Below the pieces are notes generated by a model that was given only the letters and a program-made list of their open reading frames with translations, was not told the origin of the DNA and made no database searches. Source: Promethearchaeota archaeon (GTDB lineage: Archaea; Asgardarchaeota; Lokiarchaeia; Sigyniarchaeales; SOKP01). From it: a DNA stretch of 64,000 nt. Position 1 is the first letter of the stretch; the number at the start of each line of letters is the position of its first letter. The stretch covers positions 2,086,676-2,150,675 of the forward strand of contig CP070805.1 in NCBI GenBank assembly GCA_020343655.1. The letters run 5' to 3'. The position numbers were made by a program, and so were the translations under genes. Shown here piece by piece: positions 39,543-51,334 of this stretch.

Positions 39543-39618
39543 TGGTGGGCCAGGAGAGGATCGAACTCCCGACCTTCGCGGTGTAAGCGCGACGTCATAA
39601 CCACTAGACCACTGGCCC
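39543..39618 (-). tRNA. tRNA-Val (anticodon UAC), CCA encoded
   Basis: The reverse complement GGGCCAGTGGTCTAGTGGTTATGACGTCGCGCTTACACCGCGAAGGTCGGGAGTTCGATCCTCTCCTGGCCCACCA folds as a cloverleaf. It has a 7-bp acceptor stem, a 5-bp anticodon stem and the loop CTTACAC. Confidence 0.9.
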
Positions 39619-39627
39619 TTAATTAAG

Positions 39628-39710
39628 CGCAATCGGTGGGATTTGAACCCACGAATCCTTTGGACACCGGTTTAGCAGACCGGCGCTCTACCAGGCTAAG
39701 CGACGATTGC
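39628..39710 (-). tRNA. tRNA-Ser (anticodon GCU), class II
   Basis: The reverse complement begins GCAATCGTCGCTTAGCCTGGTAGAGCGCCGGTCTGCTAAACCGG. It continues with a 14-nt variable arm, GTGGGTTCAAATCCCAC and CGATTGCG. No CCA is encoded. Confidence 0.9.
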
Positions 39711-40623: not shown

Positions 40624-40697
40624 GGGCTATTGGCGCAGGCAGGTAGCGCAACCGGCTCTTAACCGGCAGGTCGGGGGTTCGAATCCCTCATAGCCCG
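40624..40697 (+). tRNA. tRNA-Lys (anticodon CUU)
   Basis: GGGCTAT TG GCGC AGGCAGGTA GCGC A ACCGG CTCTTAA CCGGC AGGTC GGGGG TTCGAAT CCCTC ATAGCCC G. There is one A-C mismatch at 27:43, and no CCA is encoded. Confidence 0.85.
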
Positions 40698-40745
40698 CTA
40701 TTTTTTAAAAAAAAAAGAGGAATCCTCTACCCAATTTAAAAGAAA

Positions 40746-41636
40746 TTATAAATATTGAAAAACCACTTCAAAATCTGAAAAATCAAAGGGCTTCAAGATA
40801 TAACCGTCAGCTTTAGTCTCCCCCATTTTCTTCTCTACTTCAGATCCCGGTATGGCAGTCAATAAATAAATTGGTATTTCATTATACTTTTCATGATCTT
40901 TGATCATCTTGCAAATTTCATAGCCCGAAATATCTGGTAAGATGATATCTAATAATATAAGTTTAGGAACACCACCTCTCAATTCTTCTAAACCTTTTGA
41001 ACCGCTTACAACACCCTTACACTTGTATCCCTTACTTTCGAAGTAGCTGGTAAGTAAGCGGATTGTGGATAAATCATCTTCAATTAGAAGTATATCGTAT
41101 TGAAGATGAGGTTCTTCCACAGCAATATTATCTAAAATATTAATAATCTTATTTTCAAGAAGTAAACTCTGGTCGAAGATGTTCTTAATCGTCAACAACA
41201 CTTCTTCGTTTAAATCATCTTTATAATTTTCTAGAAGAAGTTGGCTAAATCCCTTTATTGTAGTAAGTGGTTCCTTTAATGCATGAGAAACATTAGAAAT
41301 TGTCTTTTCATCCATTCTGTTTAAACCATTACCAAAGAGATCTGATTTTTTTTCGATATAATAATCAACACTCTCTCTAATCAAAGCAGAAATCGTTGAA
41401 TATTGATGTGAGGCCTTAAAATCTTGCCAACGTTGTTTTTTTTCTTCAGATATATATAATGAAATTCTTTCTTTATCTCTATCATAAATTTTTTCACCTT
41501 TTAACCATTTTTTAAATCCTTCTGTAATAGTTCCTCGCCAAATTGCATATTTTTCAGTTTCATTTCGATATTCTTTCATCAAATTCTTAACTTCTTTACT
41601 TTCCAAATCTAGTTTAGCGATTTCCTCATCAGTCAA
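40746..41636 (-). CDS. Response-regulator receiver protein with RHH-like and HisKA-like (DHp) segments, no ATPase domain
   Basis: TTG start. RISLYISEEKKQRWQDFKASHQYSTISALIRESVDYYI is ribbon-helix-helix-like. VSHALKEPLTTIKGFSQLL is an H-box. The C-terminal REC domain has LLIEDD, LILLDIILPDISG, LTA and KPF motifs. Confidence 0.7.
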   Translation of the reverse strand: MTDEEIAKLDLESKEVKNLMKEYRNETEKYAIWRGTITEGFKKWLKGEKIYDRDKERISLYISEEKKQRWQDFKASHQYSTISALIRESVDYYIEKKSDLFGNGLNRMDEKTISNVSHALKEPLTTIKGFSQLLLENYKDDLNEEVLLTIKNIFDQSLLLENKIINILDNIAVEEPHLQYDILLIEDDLSTIRLLTSYFESKGYKCKGVVSGSKGLEELRGGVPKLILLDIILPDISGYEICKMIKDHEKYNEIPIYLLTAIPGSEVEKKMGETKADGYILKPFDFSDFEVVFQYL

Positions 41637-48681: not shown

Positions 48682-49779
48682 TTATAACGAAGTATTTATA
48701 GTTAATAATTTTAAGTAATAAAGTCCCTCTTTCTGAGAAATCTCAGTATAATTTGAAAGATAATTTAGTAGCAATTGTTTTTGTTCCAGATTTTTTTCGA
48801 TAGATTGTTCAACTTGAAAAGAGAGATCTTTTAAATTTTCAATTCTAATCCAATGTATTTTATTAAAAAACAATAATAATTTACTGAGAAAATCTTCCTT
48901 TGTTCCAAATTTCTGCAAATCTTTCTCGATACTTCTAATCCATTTGGTAAAAGCATTTTCACTCTTAAAACTTATAAATAAATCGTTGTCTTCTGCTAAA
49001 TTCATCCATAAATACTTATCTTTATCATCAAGCATTCTATTATAATTTACGATGTATTCTATATTTTCATTTAGCAATTTTATCCTTTCTTTCTTGGCTA
49101 ATTCTTTTTTAAACAGGAGATCTGTCTCTAATAAATCCAATCTACAATAATAGTCTGTAGGTGAATATATAAAATCAGTTACTTTTATTCCTAACATTCC
49201 AAGTACGGCTGCAAAGAATTTGCAATTTTCATAATGAAGATTTCTTTGTGTCCCAATAAATTCTAAAACTCCTTGCGCAGGTCTGTTATTTTCATCTGGA
49301 ATAATTTCCAAGTTCCATTCTTTAGAAATATTTGAAAGGTTAACTCTTGTTCTTAATCTTTCATATAATATTCTAAGATCATCATAATTCTGTGATCTAA
49401 ACTGTCTCTTCAAGAAATTTAAATAGGTTAATAGAAAACGAGTAGTAAATTCAAAAGAAAAGGGTGTATATCTATTAGACTCTGAAACCATTTCATAAAG
49501 TGGTATTGTGGCGCGGAAAGTGAATGGTTCAAAGAAATCTTTAACCTCTTTATCCTCTACTCTGGCAAAATCATCAAGAGTCTTACCCTTCTTAAATAAT
49601 TCCAATATATTCTCCATGATATAGTTATAAAAAGCTGATACGCTTTGAAATCTTTCATCATTAGGATTCTTTTTGTGATTGACATTTACATATCTTTTTA
49701 TCCAATCTTTGAGAGCAGGTGATATTGAAATCGTTTGTTGGCTAGTTTTCTTATCTGAAAGATATTTTTTAGAGGTCAT
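48682..49779 (-). CDS. Uncharacterised protein, paralog A (RHH-like N-terminus)
   Basis: QQTISISPALKDWIKRYV....RFQSVSAFYNYIMENIL looks like strand-helix-helix. The protein aligns along its whole length with ORF 50157..51242. Confidence 0.6.
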   Translation of the reverse strand: MTSKKYLSDKKTSQQTISISPALKDWIKRYVNVNHKKNPNDERFQSVSAFYNYIMENILELFKKGKTLDDFARVEDKEVKDFFEPFTFRATIPLYEMVSESNRYTPFSFEFTTRFLLTYLNFLKRQFRSQNYDDLRILYERLRTRVNLSNISKEWNLEIIPDENNRPAQGVLEFIGTQRNLHYENCKFFAAVLGMLGIKVTDFIYSPTDYYCRLDLLETDLLFKKELAKKERIKLLNENIEYIVNYNRMLDDKDKYLWMNLAEDNDLFISFKSENAFTKWIRSIEKDLQKFGTKEDFLSKLLLFFNKIHWIRIENLKDLSFQVEQSIEKNLEQKQLLLNYLSNYTEISQKEGLYYLKLLTINTSL

Positions 49780-50043
49780 AATTCCAAATATTTTACCTAA
49801 TTTTTAAATTTATAATAGTTGAGAAATTTAAAAATTTAAGAGTATTTCTGATAAAGAAGAAATTATATAATTAAAAAGATATTTATAAGATACGATTTTT
49901 TCTAATGATATATTTCCATTTCTATTCTACTTGTATATTCTTTTTAGGATTACCTATTATTAAAATTATAAGTTAGAAAAGTTAATATTAAGTTTTAAAT
50001 ATCCTCTTGAAAAATTATATTTGGGCAATTTTTAAAGATAAGA

Positions 50044-50134
50044 ACCAAGGGGATGACAGGAGAGCCTTGCCAGGAAGGTAAAAAGGGGAGAAAATCTATA
50101 GGGGCAAGGAGGGGGAGATCCTACCTTTTTTTTT
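50044..50134 (+). ncRNA. Candidate small structured RNA or regulatory element (G+C/purine-rich island ending in T9)
   Basis: About 54% G+C by hand count over ~82 nt, versus about 30% in the flanks. CCTTGCC (50065-50071) is complementary to GGCAAGG (50103-50109). Nine T residues occupy 50126-50134. The strand assignment is tentative. Confidence 0.25.
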
Positions 50135-50156
50135 CTTAATATTAAATTAGATATCC

Positions 50157-51242
50157 CTAAGAAGCTAGAGGCTCTAGGTGGTATTTCCCATTTATATGTG
50201 AAACTTTTGATTTTTTTGAAAGAATCTTTAATAAGGATTCTCTTTCAGATTGATATTTGGATTTTAATAATCTGATTTGAAAGATTAAGTCTTTCTCACT
50301 TTCAATTTCAATCCAATGTAATTTCTCAAAGAATTTTAAAAAATTGAGATGAAATTCCTCTTCTTCTCCAAATTTCTCAATTTCACTTTCTATTAATTTT
50401 ACCCATTCTTGTTTGGTTTCTTCATTATTAAAAGTAATGATTATATTTTTATCATTAGCTAATTTCATCCATAAGTAGTAATCTTTATCATTTATAATTC
50501 TATTGTAATTGATGAAAAATGAAAGATTATGTTCCATAAGGTTGATTCTTTCTTTTTTTGCTAAATCCTTTATAAAAAATAAATCTGTTGCTTTTAAATC
50601 GAATCTACAATAATCTTCTTTACGTGAATATAGAAAATTTGTAATTTTAGTTCCTAATAATCCGAAAAATGCAGCTGAGAATTTATAATTTTCATAACAC
50701 AAATTTTCATATAATCCCGCATGTTCAAAGATTCCTGATAAATCTTTAATGCCTTTTCCAGTAAAAAGATCTAATCTAAATTCCTTAGAAAGATTGTTTG
50801 AAAATACATAGTTTCTCACTCGATTAAATATGGTTTTTATGCTAGTAATATCATATGGATCCATCCGGGATGTGTATATCCTTCTAAGTGTGAAGTAGAA
50901 AAAGGGATTTCTCTCAAGAGTGGGACTTGTATAACGATTTGTTCTTATTGCATTTTCGTAATAGGGTATTAAGGCACTAAAAGATATGTTTTGGAAAATA
51001 TCTTTTATTTCAGTATCAACAAATGCTTCGAAGTCATCAAGTGTTTTACCCTTTTCAAGGATATTCATTGTTTTATCCAAAACATAGTTATAAAAGGCAG
51101 AAATACTTTTGAACCTTTTATCTTCCGGATGTTGTTTATATTTTTCATTAACATATCCTTCGATTTTATTTTTAAGTGCCGGTGAAATAGAAATCGTTTG
51201 CTGGGTGATTTTCTTTTTTGATAAGGGTCTTTCTGTAGACAT
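50157..51242 (-). CDS. Uncharacterised protein, paralog B (RHH-like N-terminus)
   Basis: QQTISISPALKNKIEGYV....RFKSISAFYNYVLDKTM. It shares blocks with paralog A, including KGKTLDDF, NRYT, YEN.KF.AA..G.LG.K.T.F.YS, LAKKERI and YLWM.LA. Confidence 0.6.
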   Translation of the reverse strand: MSTERPLSKKKITQQTISISPALKNKIEGYVNEKYKQHPEDKRFKSISAFYNYVLDKTMNILEKGKTLDDFEAFVDTEIKDIFQNISFSALIPYYENAIRTNRYTSPTLERNPFFYFTLRRIYTSRMDPYDITSIKTIFNRVRNYVFSNNLSKEFRLDLFTGKGIKDLSGIFEHAGLYENLCYENYKFSAAFFGLLGTKITNFLYSRKEDYCRFDLKATDLFFIKDLAKKERINLMEHNLSFFINYNRIINDKDYYLWMKLANDKNIIITFNNEETKQEWVKLIESEIEKFGEEEEFHLNFLKFFEKLHWIEIESEKDLIFQIRLLKSKYQSERESLLKILSKKSKVSHINGKYHLEPLAS

Positions 51243-51334
51243 TCTAAATCATTACTCATATATATTTAACATTTATACCGTAGTATAAAGTATATACGGA
51301 ATAATATTAAGATATACTATTTTAAAATTCTTGT

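What the first reader, a model, noticed from the sequence alone, without database searches (positions are those of the whole stretch)
48682..51242. Tandem pair of uncharacterised ~360-aa paralogs with ribbon-helix-helix-like N-termini
ORFs 48682..49779 and 50157..51242 (both minus strand) align over their whole length. Roughly half of positions in the first ~100 residues are identical by eye.

Shared blocks include QQTISISPALK, RF.S.SAFYNY, KGKTLDDF, NRYT, YEN.KF.AA..G.LG.K.T.F.YS, LAKKERI, NYNR...DKD.YLWM.LA and FF.K.HWI.IE..KDL.FQ.

The N-terminus (TISISPALKDWIKRYV ... SVSAFYNYIMENIL) has the strand-helix-helix look of CopG/Arc/MetJ DNA binders. It is followed by about 290 aa that I cannot assign to any family.

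The two copies are separated by a 377-bp spacer containing an unusual G+C-rich element. They sit between gatE and elp3, which are otherwise housekeeping genes.

A third RHH-like segment occurs in the response-regulator protein at 40746..41636. This may be a lineage-specific regulator family.
Basis: partly seen in the sequence, partly recalled or inferred. Interest (0 to 1): 0.6.

Follow-up and report, generated by a model that had tools for sequence, protein, structure and literature searches.

The report
Lokiarchaeal paralog pair flanking conserved RNA-like element
Two neighbouring genes encode ancient duplicates of an unannotated protein family found only in Loki-type Asgard archaea, probably nucleic-acid binders, and the gap between them holds a conserved element that looks like an undescribed small RNA gene.

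Summary
ORFs 48682..49779 and 50157..51242 (both minus strand) are 43% identical over 360 residues without a gap (E 6e-98). All eight quoted motifs sit at the same positions in both.

They belong to a compact family of about 360 aa: 127 clusters at 50% identity, every named source record a Promethearchaeota-type MAG, and no match in Pfam, NCBIfam, PDB, PADLOC or PHROGs. Both copies are under purifying selection (dN/dS 0.13-0.22). The duplication predates about 30 species-level genomes.

The family nearly always sits in the order PyrD-PyrK-Elp3-[B]-[A]-GatE-GatD. A third lineage sits directly upstream of RtcB/Archease.

The RHH reading of the N-terminus is plausible but unproven. Its motifs resemble CopG and Arc, the module is basic (pI 9.7), and the best structural hit is an RHH protein, though a weak one. 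No profile or fold search is significant. The remaining ~290 aa model confidently but match no solved fold.

The "G+C-rich element" is a conserved ~110-nt unit on the opposite strand (50018..50127). It has a TATA-like box upstream and a T9 run downstream, shows no conserved secondary structure and has no Rfam match. It is most likely a novel small RNA gene, or else an operator array.

Function remains inferred. Interest is moderate.

The parts
48682..49779 (-). Paralog A (365 aa), A-type lineage of the family; lies directly upstream of gatE
   Evidence: ORF. Identical to NCBI protein JSV23_10740. A-type forms a monophyletic clade in the NJ tree. dN/dS 0.13-0.22. AF2 model pLDDT 83.5, pTM 0.74.
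50157..51242 (-). Paralog B (361 aa), B-type lineage; lies directly downstream of elp3
   Evidence: ORF. 43% identical to A with no gaps. The B-type clade groups with the single-copy syntenic genes. dN/dS 0.13-0.22.
49585..49740 (-). RHH-like N-terminal module of A (residues 14-65): extended QQTISIS, helix 21-37, 9-residue loop, helix 47-63
   Evidence: Secondary structure from the models. Family-wide conservation of S18/S20/P21/K24/S46/S48/F50. pI 9.7. RHH membership is not demonstrated.
51048..51203 (-). RHH-like N-terminal module of B (residues 14-65)
   Evidence: Same motifs at the same residue numbers as in A.
50018..50134 (+). Conserved ~110-nt purine-rich element plus T9 run (50126-50134), on the strand opposite the genes; candidate small non-coding RNA gene
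   Evidence: Model R1 scores 83.7 bits, E 9e-24 here. One copy per locus in 36 other loci, always antisense to the family genes. Identity 65-85% against 50% for shuffled sequence. 45.5% G+C. No Rfam family reaches threshold. No conserved structure. Not coding: the ATG is not conserved and the indels are not multiples of 3.
49993..50002 (+). TATA-like box (TTTTAAATAT), about 20-25 nt upstream of where the element's conservation starts
   Evidence: Conserved as TTTAAATA / TTTATATA / TTTATAAA in the same alignment columns in most of 30 loci. Coordinates. Promoter function is inferred.
49780..50017 (-). AT-rich upstream region of A. Its length is fixed (236-238 nt in 8/8 loci compared). It holds two conserved blocks: AAAAAATCGTATCTTATAAA at 49882-49901 and TTCTCAACTATTATAAATTTAAAAATT at 49799-49825, the latter including a TATA-like box 23-35 nt before the ATG
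   Evidence: Alignment of 28 upstream regions. Length constancy. Coordinates.

Best explanation
The two ORFs are ancient tandem duplicates of a protein family restricted to Loki-type Asgard archaea (Promethearchaeota).

Each protein has a basic N-terminal module of about 50 residues. This is most likely a divergent ribbon-helix-helix that dimerises and binds nucleic acid, probably DNA. It is followed by ~290 residues of a confidently modelled but unassigned fold containing two alpha-beta-beta-alpha-beta-beta units. That larger part would act as the oligomerisation or ligand/partner-binding portion.

The likeliest role is a sequence-specific regulator acting on its own constrained intergenic region. 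A and B have sub-functionalised, or possibly pair with each other through the RHH.

The conserved element in the spacer is most likely a separately transcribed ~115-nt unstructured, purine-rich small RNA. It would be transcribed divergently from A and convergently with B.

Shown: paralogy, family limits, purifying selection, synteny, and the conservation and orientation of the element.

Inferred: the RHH fold, DNA binding, the regulatory role, and transcription of the element.
For: Paralogy and family:
- 43% identity, 0 gaps, E 6e-98.
- 262 homologues, and 127 clusters at 50% identity, all about 350-365 aa or fragments of that.
- All 77 genome loci are Promethearchaeota-type MAGs.
- dN/dS is 0.13-0.22.
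- A-type and B-type clades are each monophyletic across about 30 genomes.

N-terminal module:
- It is the most conserved part of the protein: LSxKK..QQTISISPALKDWI and SxSxF, with S48 and F50 invariant in 38 divergent sequences.
- It has pI 9.7, while the rest of A is neutral to acidic.
- The model shows an extended N-terminus followed by two 17-residue helices, at pLDDT about 90.
- hhalign's best local alignment puts S48-A-F-Y-N-Y-I-M-E on Arc S35-E-I-Y-Q-R-V-M-E, the start of helix B.
- The top PDB structural neighbour is 1zx3, described in PMC6294495 as an RHH with a third helix.

No enzyme signature: family-wide invariant residues are mostly hydrophobic, and Cys186 is not conserved.

Spacer:
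- The element occurs once per locus and is always antisense to the genes.
- It has a conserved TATA-like box upstream and a T-run downstream.
- A diverged form sits at the same place in single-copy loci.
- The distance from the element to the A start codon is fixed at 236-238 nt although dS is above 1.
Against: - No statistically significant link to any RHH. Pfam finds no RHH-clan hit even at E<=10 in 80 scans.
- hhalign against CopG, NikR, Arc and MetJ gives at most 1.5% probability, the same as reversed-sequence controls. That test also missed true RHH pairs, so it has low power.
- Foldseek hits of the N-terminal model all have E>=2.5 in the PDB and E>=0.28 in BFVD (the best named BFVD hit is E 1.1). 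No canonical RHH is listed.
- The loop between the helices is 9 residues.
- The beta-strand is not formed in the monomer model.
- No repeated operator motif was demonstrated.
- Neighbours in two independent contexts are tRNA enzymes (Elp3/GatDE, and RtcB/Archease). That fits an RNA-related role at least as well as a DNA-related one.
- Transcription of the element is untested, and it shows no conserved RNA structure.
Confidence: 0.45

Rival explanations
1. The family is an RNA- or tRNA-associated factor rather than a transcription regulator. The basic N-terminus and the novel body would bind tRNA, or the neighbouring small RNA as an RNP. The gene stays next to tRNA-metabolism genes because it works with them.
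For: In nearly all genomes the gene lies between Elp3 (tRNA U34 modification) and GatE/GatD (tRNA-dependent amidotransferase) on the same strand. An independent paralog lineage in six loci lies immediately upstream of RtcB (1.3e-170), with Archease adjacent. A conserved RNA-like element is adjacent in about 40 loci. No catalytic residues are conserved.
Against: PyrD and PyrK are just as syntenic yet functionally unrelated, so the conserved order may simply be inherited among fairly close relatives (GatE 67-94% identical). Unrelated genes are inserted between A and GatE in about 10 loci. Other extra copies sit next to DnaK/GrpE, TetR/GH4 or DUF362. No element was detected at the RtcB-linked copies. 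No RNA-binding domain was detected.
Confidence: 0.2
2. The N-terminus is not an RHH at all. The two helices are simply the first part of a larger helical domain of a lineage-specific protein with a non-nucleic-acid role, structural or protein-binding.
For: All RHH tests fall below significance. The inter-helix loop is long. In the full-length model the region is followed by five more helices, residues 68-146. pTM 0.74 suggests one compact body. The whole model has no PDB neighbour at E<0.05.
Against: The strongest conservation falls on the short extended segment and on the start of helix 2, exactly where RHH proteins contact DNA. The module is basic. The best structural neighbour is an RHH.
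Confidence: 0.2
3. The body of the protein is a degenerate, catalytically dead LAGLIDADG-like double domain, that is a domesticated homing endonuclease comparable to WhiA. It would use its beta-sheet saddle, together with the N-terminal module, to bind DNA.
For: The model has two alpha-beta-beta-alpha-beta-beta units, residues 132-218 and 297-356. They show a weak co-linear profile similarity to each other: 8.7% probability, E 0.004, against at most 0.6% for controls. I-DmoI appears among the weak Foldseek hits (E 0.28, probability 0.20). The topology resemblance itself comes from general knowledge of the fold.
Confidence: 0.08
4. This rival concerns the spacer element only. It is not an RNA gene but a cis-acting DNA element: an operator array, or a nucleoprotein assembly site bound by the family proteins.
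For: No conserved secondary structure or covariation in 23-39 sequences. The folding z-score is about 0. G-runs recur at roughly 8-16-nt intervals (read from the consensus). The spacing to the A start codon is fixed. The putative DNA-contacting residues of the proteins are highly conserved, which predicts a conserved target. The single-copy clade carries a palindromic GGAGACTCC.
Against: Conservation begins about 20-25 nt after a conserved TATA-like box and ends in a T9 run, which is the layout of an archaeal transcription unit. G+C enrichment within 16% G+C intergenic DNA is typical of RNA genes. In L012 and L013 the element is separated from A by 2-3 kb of inserted genes yet remains conserved.
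Confidence: 0.3

Closest known systems
Ribbon-helix-helix repressors (CopG, Arc/Mnt, MetJ, NikR N-domain; Pfam clan Met_repress), especially RHH proteins with a third helix such as Reg576 and NE0241 (PDB 1zx3)
   Same: A short N-terminal segment of alternating hydrophobic and polar residues (T-I-S-I-S), followed by two helices. A Ser-rich N-cap of helix 2 (S46, S48) and a conserved core Phe. A basic N-terminal tail. A third short helix (68-74), as in 1zx3, which is the top structural neighbour.
   Different: No significant sequence or profile match. A 9-residue loop in place of a tight turn. The module is fused to ~290 residues of unassigned fold, whereas most RHH proteins are 45-130 aa. Dimerisation and DNA binding are untested.
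Multi-domain RHH regulators such as NikR (RHH plus ACT-like sensor) and the Lokiarchaeum Arc-type RHH-HisKA-REC proteins (PMC5847659; window ORF 40746..41636)
   Same: The general logic of an N-terminal RHH followed by a larger C-terminal module that would sense or oligomerise. The RHH-HisKA-REC type occurs in the same lineage and in the same window.
   Different: The C-terminal part is unrelated. There is no ACT, HisKA or REC domain, and no specific similarity between the N-termini.
WhiA / degenerate LAGLIDADG DNA-binding proteins
   Same: Two alpha-beta-beta-alpha-beta-beta units in one chain combined with a small helical DNA-binding module. No catalytic residues.
   Different: Only a topology-level resemblance plus one non-significant Foldseek hit. 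No LAGLIDADG motif. The accessory module is N-terminal and RHH-like rather than a C-terminal HTH.
Unstructured protein-titrating or antisense small RNAs (bacterial CsrB/RsmZ type; archaeal intergenic sRNAs)
   Same: An intergenic unit of about 115 nt with its own promoter-like and terminator-like signals, and many GGA/GGAG/GGGG motifs. The best Rfam hit is RsmZ (20.9 bits).
   Different: The score is far below the gathering threshold of 44 and is not reproduced in an orthologous locus. The GGA motifs are not presented in conserved hairpin loops. No CsrA-like partner is known to me in archaea (from memory, not tested).

Membership tests
Ribbon-helix-helix superfamily | Beta-strand, helix A, helix B module of about 45 residues at the DNA-binding end | tested here: inconclusive
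   AF2 gives an extended coil at 1-20, H21-37 and H47-63 at pLDDT about 90. The strand cannot form in a monomer model, and the 9-residue loop is atypical.
Ribbon-helix-helix superfamily | Alternating hydrophobic/polar strand, plus an S/T/N N-cap of helix B that contacts the phosphate backbone | tested here: met
   T16-I17-S18-I19-S20 is conserved, and S46/S48/F50 are invariant or nearly so. S48 aligns with Arc S35. This is a motif-level match only.
Ribbon-helix-helix superfamily | Significant sequence or profile similarity to an RHH family (Pfam clan CL0057) | tested here: not met
   No RHH-clan Pfam hit at E<=10 in 42 full-length and 38 N-terminal scans. hhalign gives at most 1.5% probability, equal to the reversed control. 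The test has low power: Arc and MetJ were also missed.
Ribbon-helix-helix superfamily | Structural superposition on a solved RHH | tested here: inconclusive
   The top PDB hit, 1zx3, is an RHH with a third helix, but E 2.5, probability 0.20, TM 0.46. No CopG, Arc, MetJ or NikR among the 17 hits. BFVD was uninformative.
Ribbon-helix-helix superfamily | Obligate dimer with an intersubunit antiparallel beta-ribbon inserted in the DNA major groove | not testable with these tools
   No multimer prediction or experiment was available.
LAGLIDADG homing endonuclease-like fold | Two alpha-beta-beta-alpha-beta-beta-alpha domains with LAGLIDADG helices at the interface, each carrying a catalytic acidic residue | tested here: not met
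   The secondary-structure topology is compatible. No LAGLIDADG motif or conserved acidic residue is present. The I-DmoI Foldseek hit has E 0.28.
CsrB/RsmZ-type sRNA (Rfam RF00166, clan CL00106) | Score at or above the Rfam gathering threshold, with repeated GGA motifs in hairpin loops | tested here: not met
   20.9 bits against a gathering score of 44. There is no hit in the orthologous element of L031 and no conserved hairpins.
Archaeal box C/D sRNA | C box RUGAUGA near the 5' end and D box CUGA near the 3' end, flanked by a terminal stem; length about 50-70 nt | tested here: not met
   Only a partial GGAUGA is present, and it is not conserved (GATTGA, GATCGC or GAAAGA in other loci). There is no CUGA at the 3' end. 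Length is about 115 nt. No Rfam snoRNA hit.

The most novel reading that the evidence does not exclude
The protein family and the adjacent conserved ~115-nt RNA form a Lokiarchaeia-specific ribonucleoprotein or regulatory module dedicated to tRNA maturation and charging. It would be linked to Elp3, GatDE and RtcB/Archease, built on a protein fold with no solved relative.
Probability: 0.12. Interest if true: 0.7.

Novelty: new variant of a known kind. Interest (0 to 1): 0.45.

Why it matters
Loki-type Asgard archaea are the closest cultivated relatives of eukaryotes, and a large share of their genes is unannotated. Several features mark this family as functionally important rather than incidental:
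- It appears in all 77 related genome loci recovered here (at least one copy each).
- It is under purifying selection.
- It is kept at one chromosomal position next to tRNA-modification, tRNA-amidation and, for one lineage, tRNA-ligation genes.
- It is accompanied by a conserved non-coding element.

If the N-terminus is an RHH, this would be a large lineage-specific RHH regulator with a new effector domain. If the element is transcribed, it would add an undescribed small RNA family, absent from Rfam, to a lineage in which I found no described regulatory RNA (two literature searches).

Neither outcome would overturn current views. Both are cheap to test in the existing enrichment cultures.

Tried and rejected
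- Pfam, NCBIfam, PDB sequence search (single sequence and profile), PADLOC and PHROGs gave nothing significant.
- Recurrent weak QIL1/MIC13 hits (13-17 bits against a cutoff of 26.6), and a DUF2115 hit seen only in this window's B protein, were judged to be noise.
- Foldseek of the full model against the PDB: best E 0.05 (S24e, large GDH, MopR sensor, GyrA, I-DmoI), with none credible.
- A profile search with 49 divergent members found only the same family.
- The NikR search returned only close homologues (at least 72% identity). The resulting RHH profile was narrow and missed Arc and MetJ as well.
- Element as a protein-coding micro-ORF: rejected. The 28-codon ORF starting at the ATG in GGGGATGACAGG is not conserved.
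- Element as a tRNA or a known RNA: rejected.
- Conserved RNA structure: RNAalifold gave 0-3 pairs, and two hairpins picked by eye did no better than slid controls.
- The element read in gene orientation (GGATCTCGTCCTCCTTA) resembles the 16S rRNA 3' end as I recall it. I could not test this and do not rely on it.
- A V4R/Bet3-like reading of the central domain rests only on the weak MopR hit and was not pursued.
- Two literature searches found nothing on this family or on the RNA.
Full report
**Observation**

The two minus-strand ORFs are present as described: 48682..49779 (A, 365 aa) and 50157..51242 (B, 361 aa). They align end to end without a gap: 154/360 identical, 64% similar, E 6e-98. 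Identity is 51% in the first 100 residues, 31% in the second hundred, 48% in the third and 40% at the end.

The spacer is 377 bp. Its G+C-rich part is 45.5% G+C, against 16% for the rest of the spacer and 29.8% for the window. The neighbours are GatE followed by GatD downstream, and Elp3 upstream, followed by PyrK-like and PyrD ORFs. The window holds no third copy of the family.

**What the proteins are**

Neither protein matches any Pfam, NCBIfam, PADLOC or PHROGs model at a meaningful level, nor any PDB sequence, whether searched singly or as a family profile.

Protein A is identical to an NCBI entry, 'hypothetical protein JSV23_10740 [Promethearchaeota archaeon]', on a 2.27-Mb contig. It has 262 homologues, all unnamed or 'hypothetical'. 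An exhaustive phmmer search of 1.84 billion cluster representatives with B found only 127 clusters, all 350-365 aa long or fragments of that. A profile built from 49 divergent members found nothing outside the family.

All 77 loci recovered from one-genome-per-species GTDB contigs come from Promethearchaeota-type MAGs. Some records carry Thor-, Hod-, Hermod- or Odinarchaeota labels. Their GatE proteins are 73-94% identical to the window's, so I infer that they are all Loki-type relatives.

Orthologue comparisons give dN/dS of 0.13-0.22 for both A and B, with dS about 1-1.4 for most pairs (0.4-0.6 against the closest genome, L003). Both are therefore functional genes under purifying selection.

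**History and context**

In most loci the order PyrD-PyrK-Elp3-[family]-GatE-GatD is kept on one strand. About 30 genomes have the B-then-A tandem seen here. Others have a single copy about 50% identical to both. A few have independent tandems.

A neighbour-joining tree makes the A-type and B-type copies each monophyletic. B-type groups with the single-copy syntenic genes, and A-type is the divergent lineage. The duplication is therefore old and both copies have been retained.

A further lineage occurs in six loci directly upstream of RtcB on the same strand (PF01139, 1.3e-170), with Archease adjacent. Other stray copies have unrelated neighbours: DnaK/GrpE, TetR plus a family-4 glycosidase, and DUF362.

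Association with three tRNA-related systems (Elp3, GatDE, RtcB/Archease) is suggestive. It is weakened by two facts. PyrD and PyrK are just as conserved as neighbours. And unrelated genes, for example a 798-aa glycyl-radical-enzyme-like ORF, are inserted between A and GatE in about ten loci.

**Structure**

AlphaFold2 with a 42-sequence alignment gives a confident model (pLDDT 83.5, pTM 0.74):
- a disordered or extended N-terminus (1-20);
- helices 21-37 and 47-63;
- five further helices (68-146);
- an alpha-beta-beta-alpha-beta-beta unit (132-218);
- a helical stretch (229-307);
- a second, smaller alpha-beta-beta-alpha-beta-beta unit (297-356).

The two units show a weak co-linear profile similarity: 8.7% probability, E 0.004, with controls at or below 0.6%. 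This hints at an internal duplication but does not establish one.

Across divergent members the invariant positions are mostly hydrophobic or Gly (G197, F271, W258, W310, F321), plus K10, S48, Y104, K187 and N239. The Cys of 'ENCK' is not conserved. I see no catalytic or metal-binding signature.

**Is the N-terminus an RHH?**

Evidence for:
- The segment Q14-Q15-T16-I17-S18-I19-S20-P21-A-L-K-D-W-I is the best-conserved part of the family. It has the alternating pattern and helix N-cap of CopG's TITLSESVLENL. The CopG sequence was verified against PDB 1b01/2cpg.
- S46-V-S48-A-F50 opens helix 2. hhalign's best local alignment superposes it on Arc S35-E-I-Y-Q-R-V-M-E. The Arc sequence is from memory.
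- Residues 1-65 have pI 9.7, while the rest of A is neutral or acidic.
- The isolated N-terminal model (pLDDT 87.4) has as its top PDB neighbour 1zx3. PMC6294495 describes that protein as sharing the unusual RHH-plus-third-helix geometry of Reg576.

Evidence against:
- That hit is weak (E 2.5, probability 0.20, TM 0.46), and no canonical RHH is among the 17 hits. BFVD gave only unnamed weak hits.
- No RHH-clan Pfam model hits any of 42 full-length or 38 N-terminal sequences, even at E<=10.
- hhalign against CopG, NikR, Arc, MetJ and a NikR profile gives at most 1.5%, no better than reversed controls.
- The inter-helix loop is 9 residues.

The profile test has low power. It recovered CopG-NikR (64-83%) but missed Arc and MetJ, so it cannot exclude a divergent RHH.

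I put the RHH reading at roughly 60%. The fold is plausible and the motifs fit, but membership is not demonstrated.

**The response regulator**

ORF 40746..41636 has HisKA and REC domains by Pfam. [quoted passage not shown]

However, the segment shows no specific similarity to the A/B N-terminus, so it does not define a common family.

**The spacer element**

The G+C-rich stretch is conserved in every tandem locus. Aligned on the strand opposite the genes, it shows three parts in order:
- a conserved TATA-like box (window 49993-50002);
- about 20-25 nt later, the start of a ~110-nt conserved core (50018-50127), with consensus TATTTGGGCAATTTTTAnCGATAAAAATCAAGGGGATGACAGGAGACCCTTGCCATAAAGGTAAAAAnAGGGGAAAATnGnGGGGTTAAGGAGGACGAGATCC;
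- an oligo-T run (50126-50134), ending 23 nt before B's stop codon.

A sequence-only covariance model finds exactly one copy per locus, always antisense to the family genes. The window copy scores 83.7 bits, E 9e-24.

Single-copy loci carry a shorter, diverged version between Elp3 and the family gene, sharing the boxes GGAGACYCYTGCCAnnAAGG and GGRCGARATC. The element therefore predates the duplication.

Its identity to orthologous copies is 65-85%, against 50% for shuffled sequence, although synonymous sites are near saturation.

It is not a tRNA and not any Rfam family. The best hit is RsmZ at 20.9 bits against a threshold of 44, and this is not reproduced in L031. It is not coding either, because the only ATG is not conserved and the indels are not in threes.

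It has no detectable conserved secondary structure. RNAalifold gives 0-3 pairs, the folding z-score is about 0, and hairpins picked by eye do no better than slid controls.

The remaining 238 nt between the element and A's ATG is poorly conserved in sequence, apart from two blocks at 49882-49901 and 49799-49825, the latter with a TATA-like box. Yet its length is fixed at 236-238 nt in all eight loci compared. The whole spacer therefore behaves as one constrained unit.

My reading is that the element is a divergently transcribed, unstructured, purine-rich small RNA (about 55%). The main alternative is a DNA operator or assembly site for the family proteins (about 30%).

**How it most likely works**

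Shown: an old, retained tandem duplication of a lineage-restricted protein with a basic, highly conserved N-terminal module and a large novel body, sitting beside a conserved non-coding unit.

Inferred: the N-terminal module dimerises as an RHH and reads a conserved DNA target, most simply within its own constrained spacer. The body mediates higher-order assembly or senses a ligand or partner. A and B have divided these roles, or pair with each other.

The RNA/tRNA-partner alternative is kept at 20%. 'Not a nucleic-acid binder' is also at 20%, and a degenerate LAGLIDADG-like origin for the body at 8%.

**Novelty and verdict**

The family and the element are undescribed in every library searched and in the two literature searches I ran.

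If the RHH reading holds, this is a new variant of a known kind: an RHH regulator with an unprecedented 290-residue partner domain. The candidate small RNA is a bonus finding.

Interest is moderate. The locus is solidly real and conserved in a lineage of high evolutionary interest, but its function is still inferred and nothing here contradicts current understanding.

Noticed in passing
window 40746..41636 (-): A 296-aa protein with HisKA and REC domains by Pfam, plus an N-terminal CopG-like segment (ERISLYISEEKKQRWQDF...STISALIRESVDYYIEKK). It matches the 'Arc-type RHH-HisKA-REC' architecture reported for Lokiarchaeum GC14_75 (PMC5847659).
   Followed up: partly
L051:7989-11169 and the same region in L052, L055, L056, L062, L063: A third paralog lineage of the family lies immediately upstream of RtcB (tRNA-splicing ligase), with Archease adjacent. 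CDP-archaeol synthase, Orc1/Cdc6 and the PolD small subunit lie further along. A 185-aa weak wHTH protein lies upstream.
   Followed up: partly
window 49780..50017; same region in L003, L005, L007-L010, L014, L031: The distance from the conserved element to the A start codon is 236-238 nt in all eight loci compared, although most of that sequence is barely above shuffled identity. Length is constrained without sequence conservation.
   Followed up: partly
window 49882..49901 (-) and upstream of B (about 51290-51300): A conserved block AAATGTATCTTGTAAAA lies about 105-125 nt upstream of A. A similar (T)ATCTT-containing block (AGTATATCTTAATAT) lies upstream of B. These may be a shared operator half-site. 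Not tested statistically.
   Followed up: no
L009:9172-11568 (also L010, L026, L029, L030, L039-L041, L047, L075): About 2.6 kb is inserted between the A-type gene and GatE. In L009 it encodes a 798-aa glycyl-radical-enzyme-like protein (C-terminal RVSGYSARF motif). This shows that the A-GatE adjacency is not obligatory.
   Followed up: partly
L012:4658-8000 and L013:6009-8000: The element is separated from the A-type gene by 2-3 kb of inserted ORFs but remains conserved. In L013 (complete chromosome CP070831.1) neither B nor Elp3 lies within 8 kb upstream.
   Followed up: partly
window 50105..50121 (+); read on the minus strand as GGATCTCCCCCTCCTTG: The 3' part of the element contains a strong Shine-Dalgarno-like AAGGAGG followed by GAGATCC. 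In gene orientation the consensus GGATCTCGTCCTCCTTA resembles the 3' end of 16S rRNA as I recall it. Not tested.
   Followed up: no
L010:4022-4098 (+): A weak second match to the 5' half of the element model (14 bits, E 0.025-0.048), on the gene strand and inside the inserted region between A and GatE. Possibly a partial duplicate, possibly chance.
   Followed up: no
window 39543..39710 (-) and 40624..40698 (+): tRNA-Val(TAC) and tRNA-Ser(GCT) lie 8 nt apart, and tRNA-Lys(CTT) lies just downstream of the 3' end of the RHH-HisKA-REC gene (40746..41636, minus strand).
   Followed up: no
record titles of L003, L010, L011, L014, L029, L048, L062 and others: Several MAGs are labelled Hod-, Thor-, Hermod- or Odinarchaeota in NCBI. 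Their GatE proteins are 73-94% identical to this window's, and they share its gene order. The phylum-level labels look unreliable.
   Followed up: no
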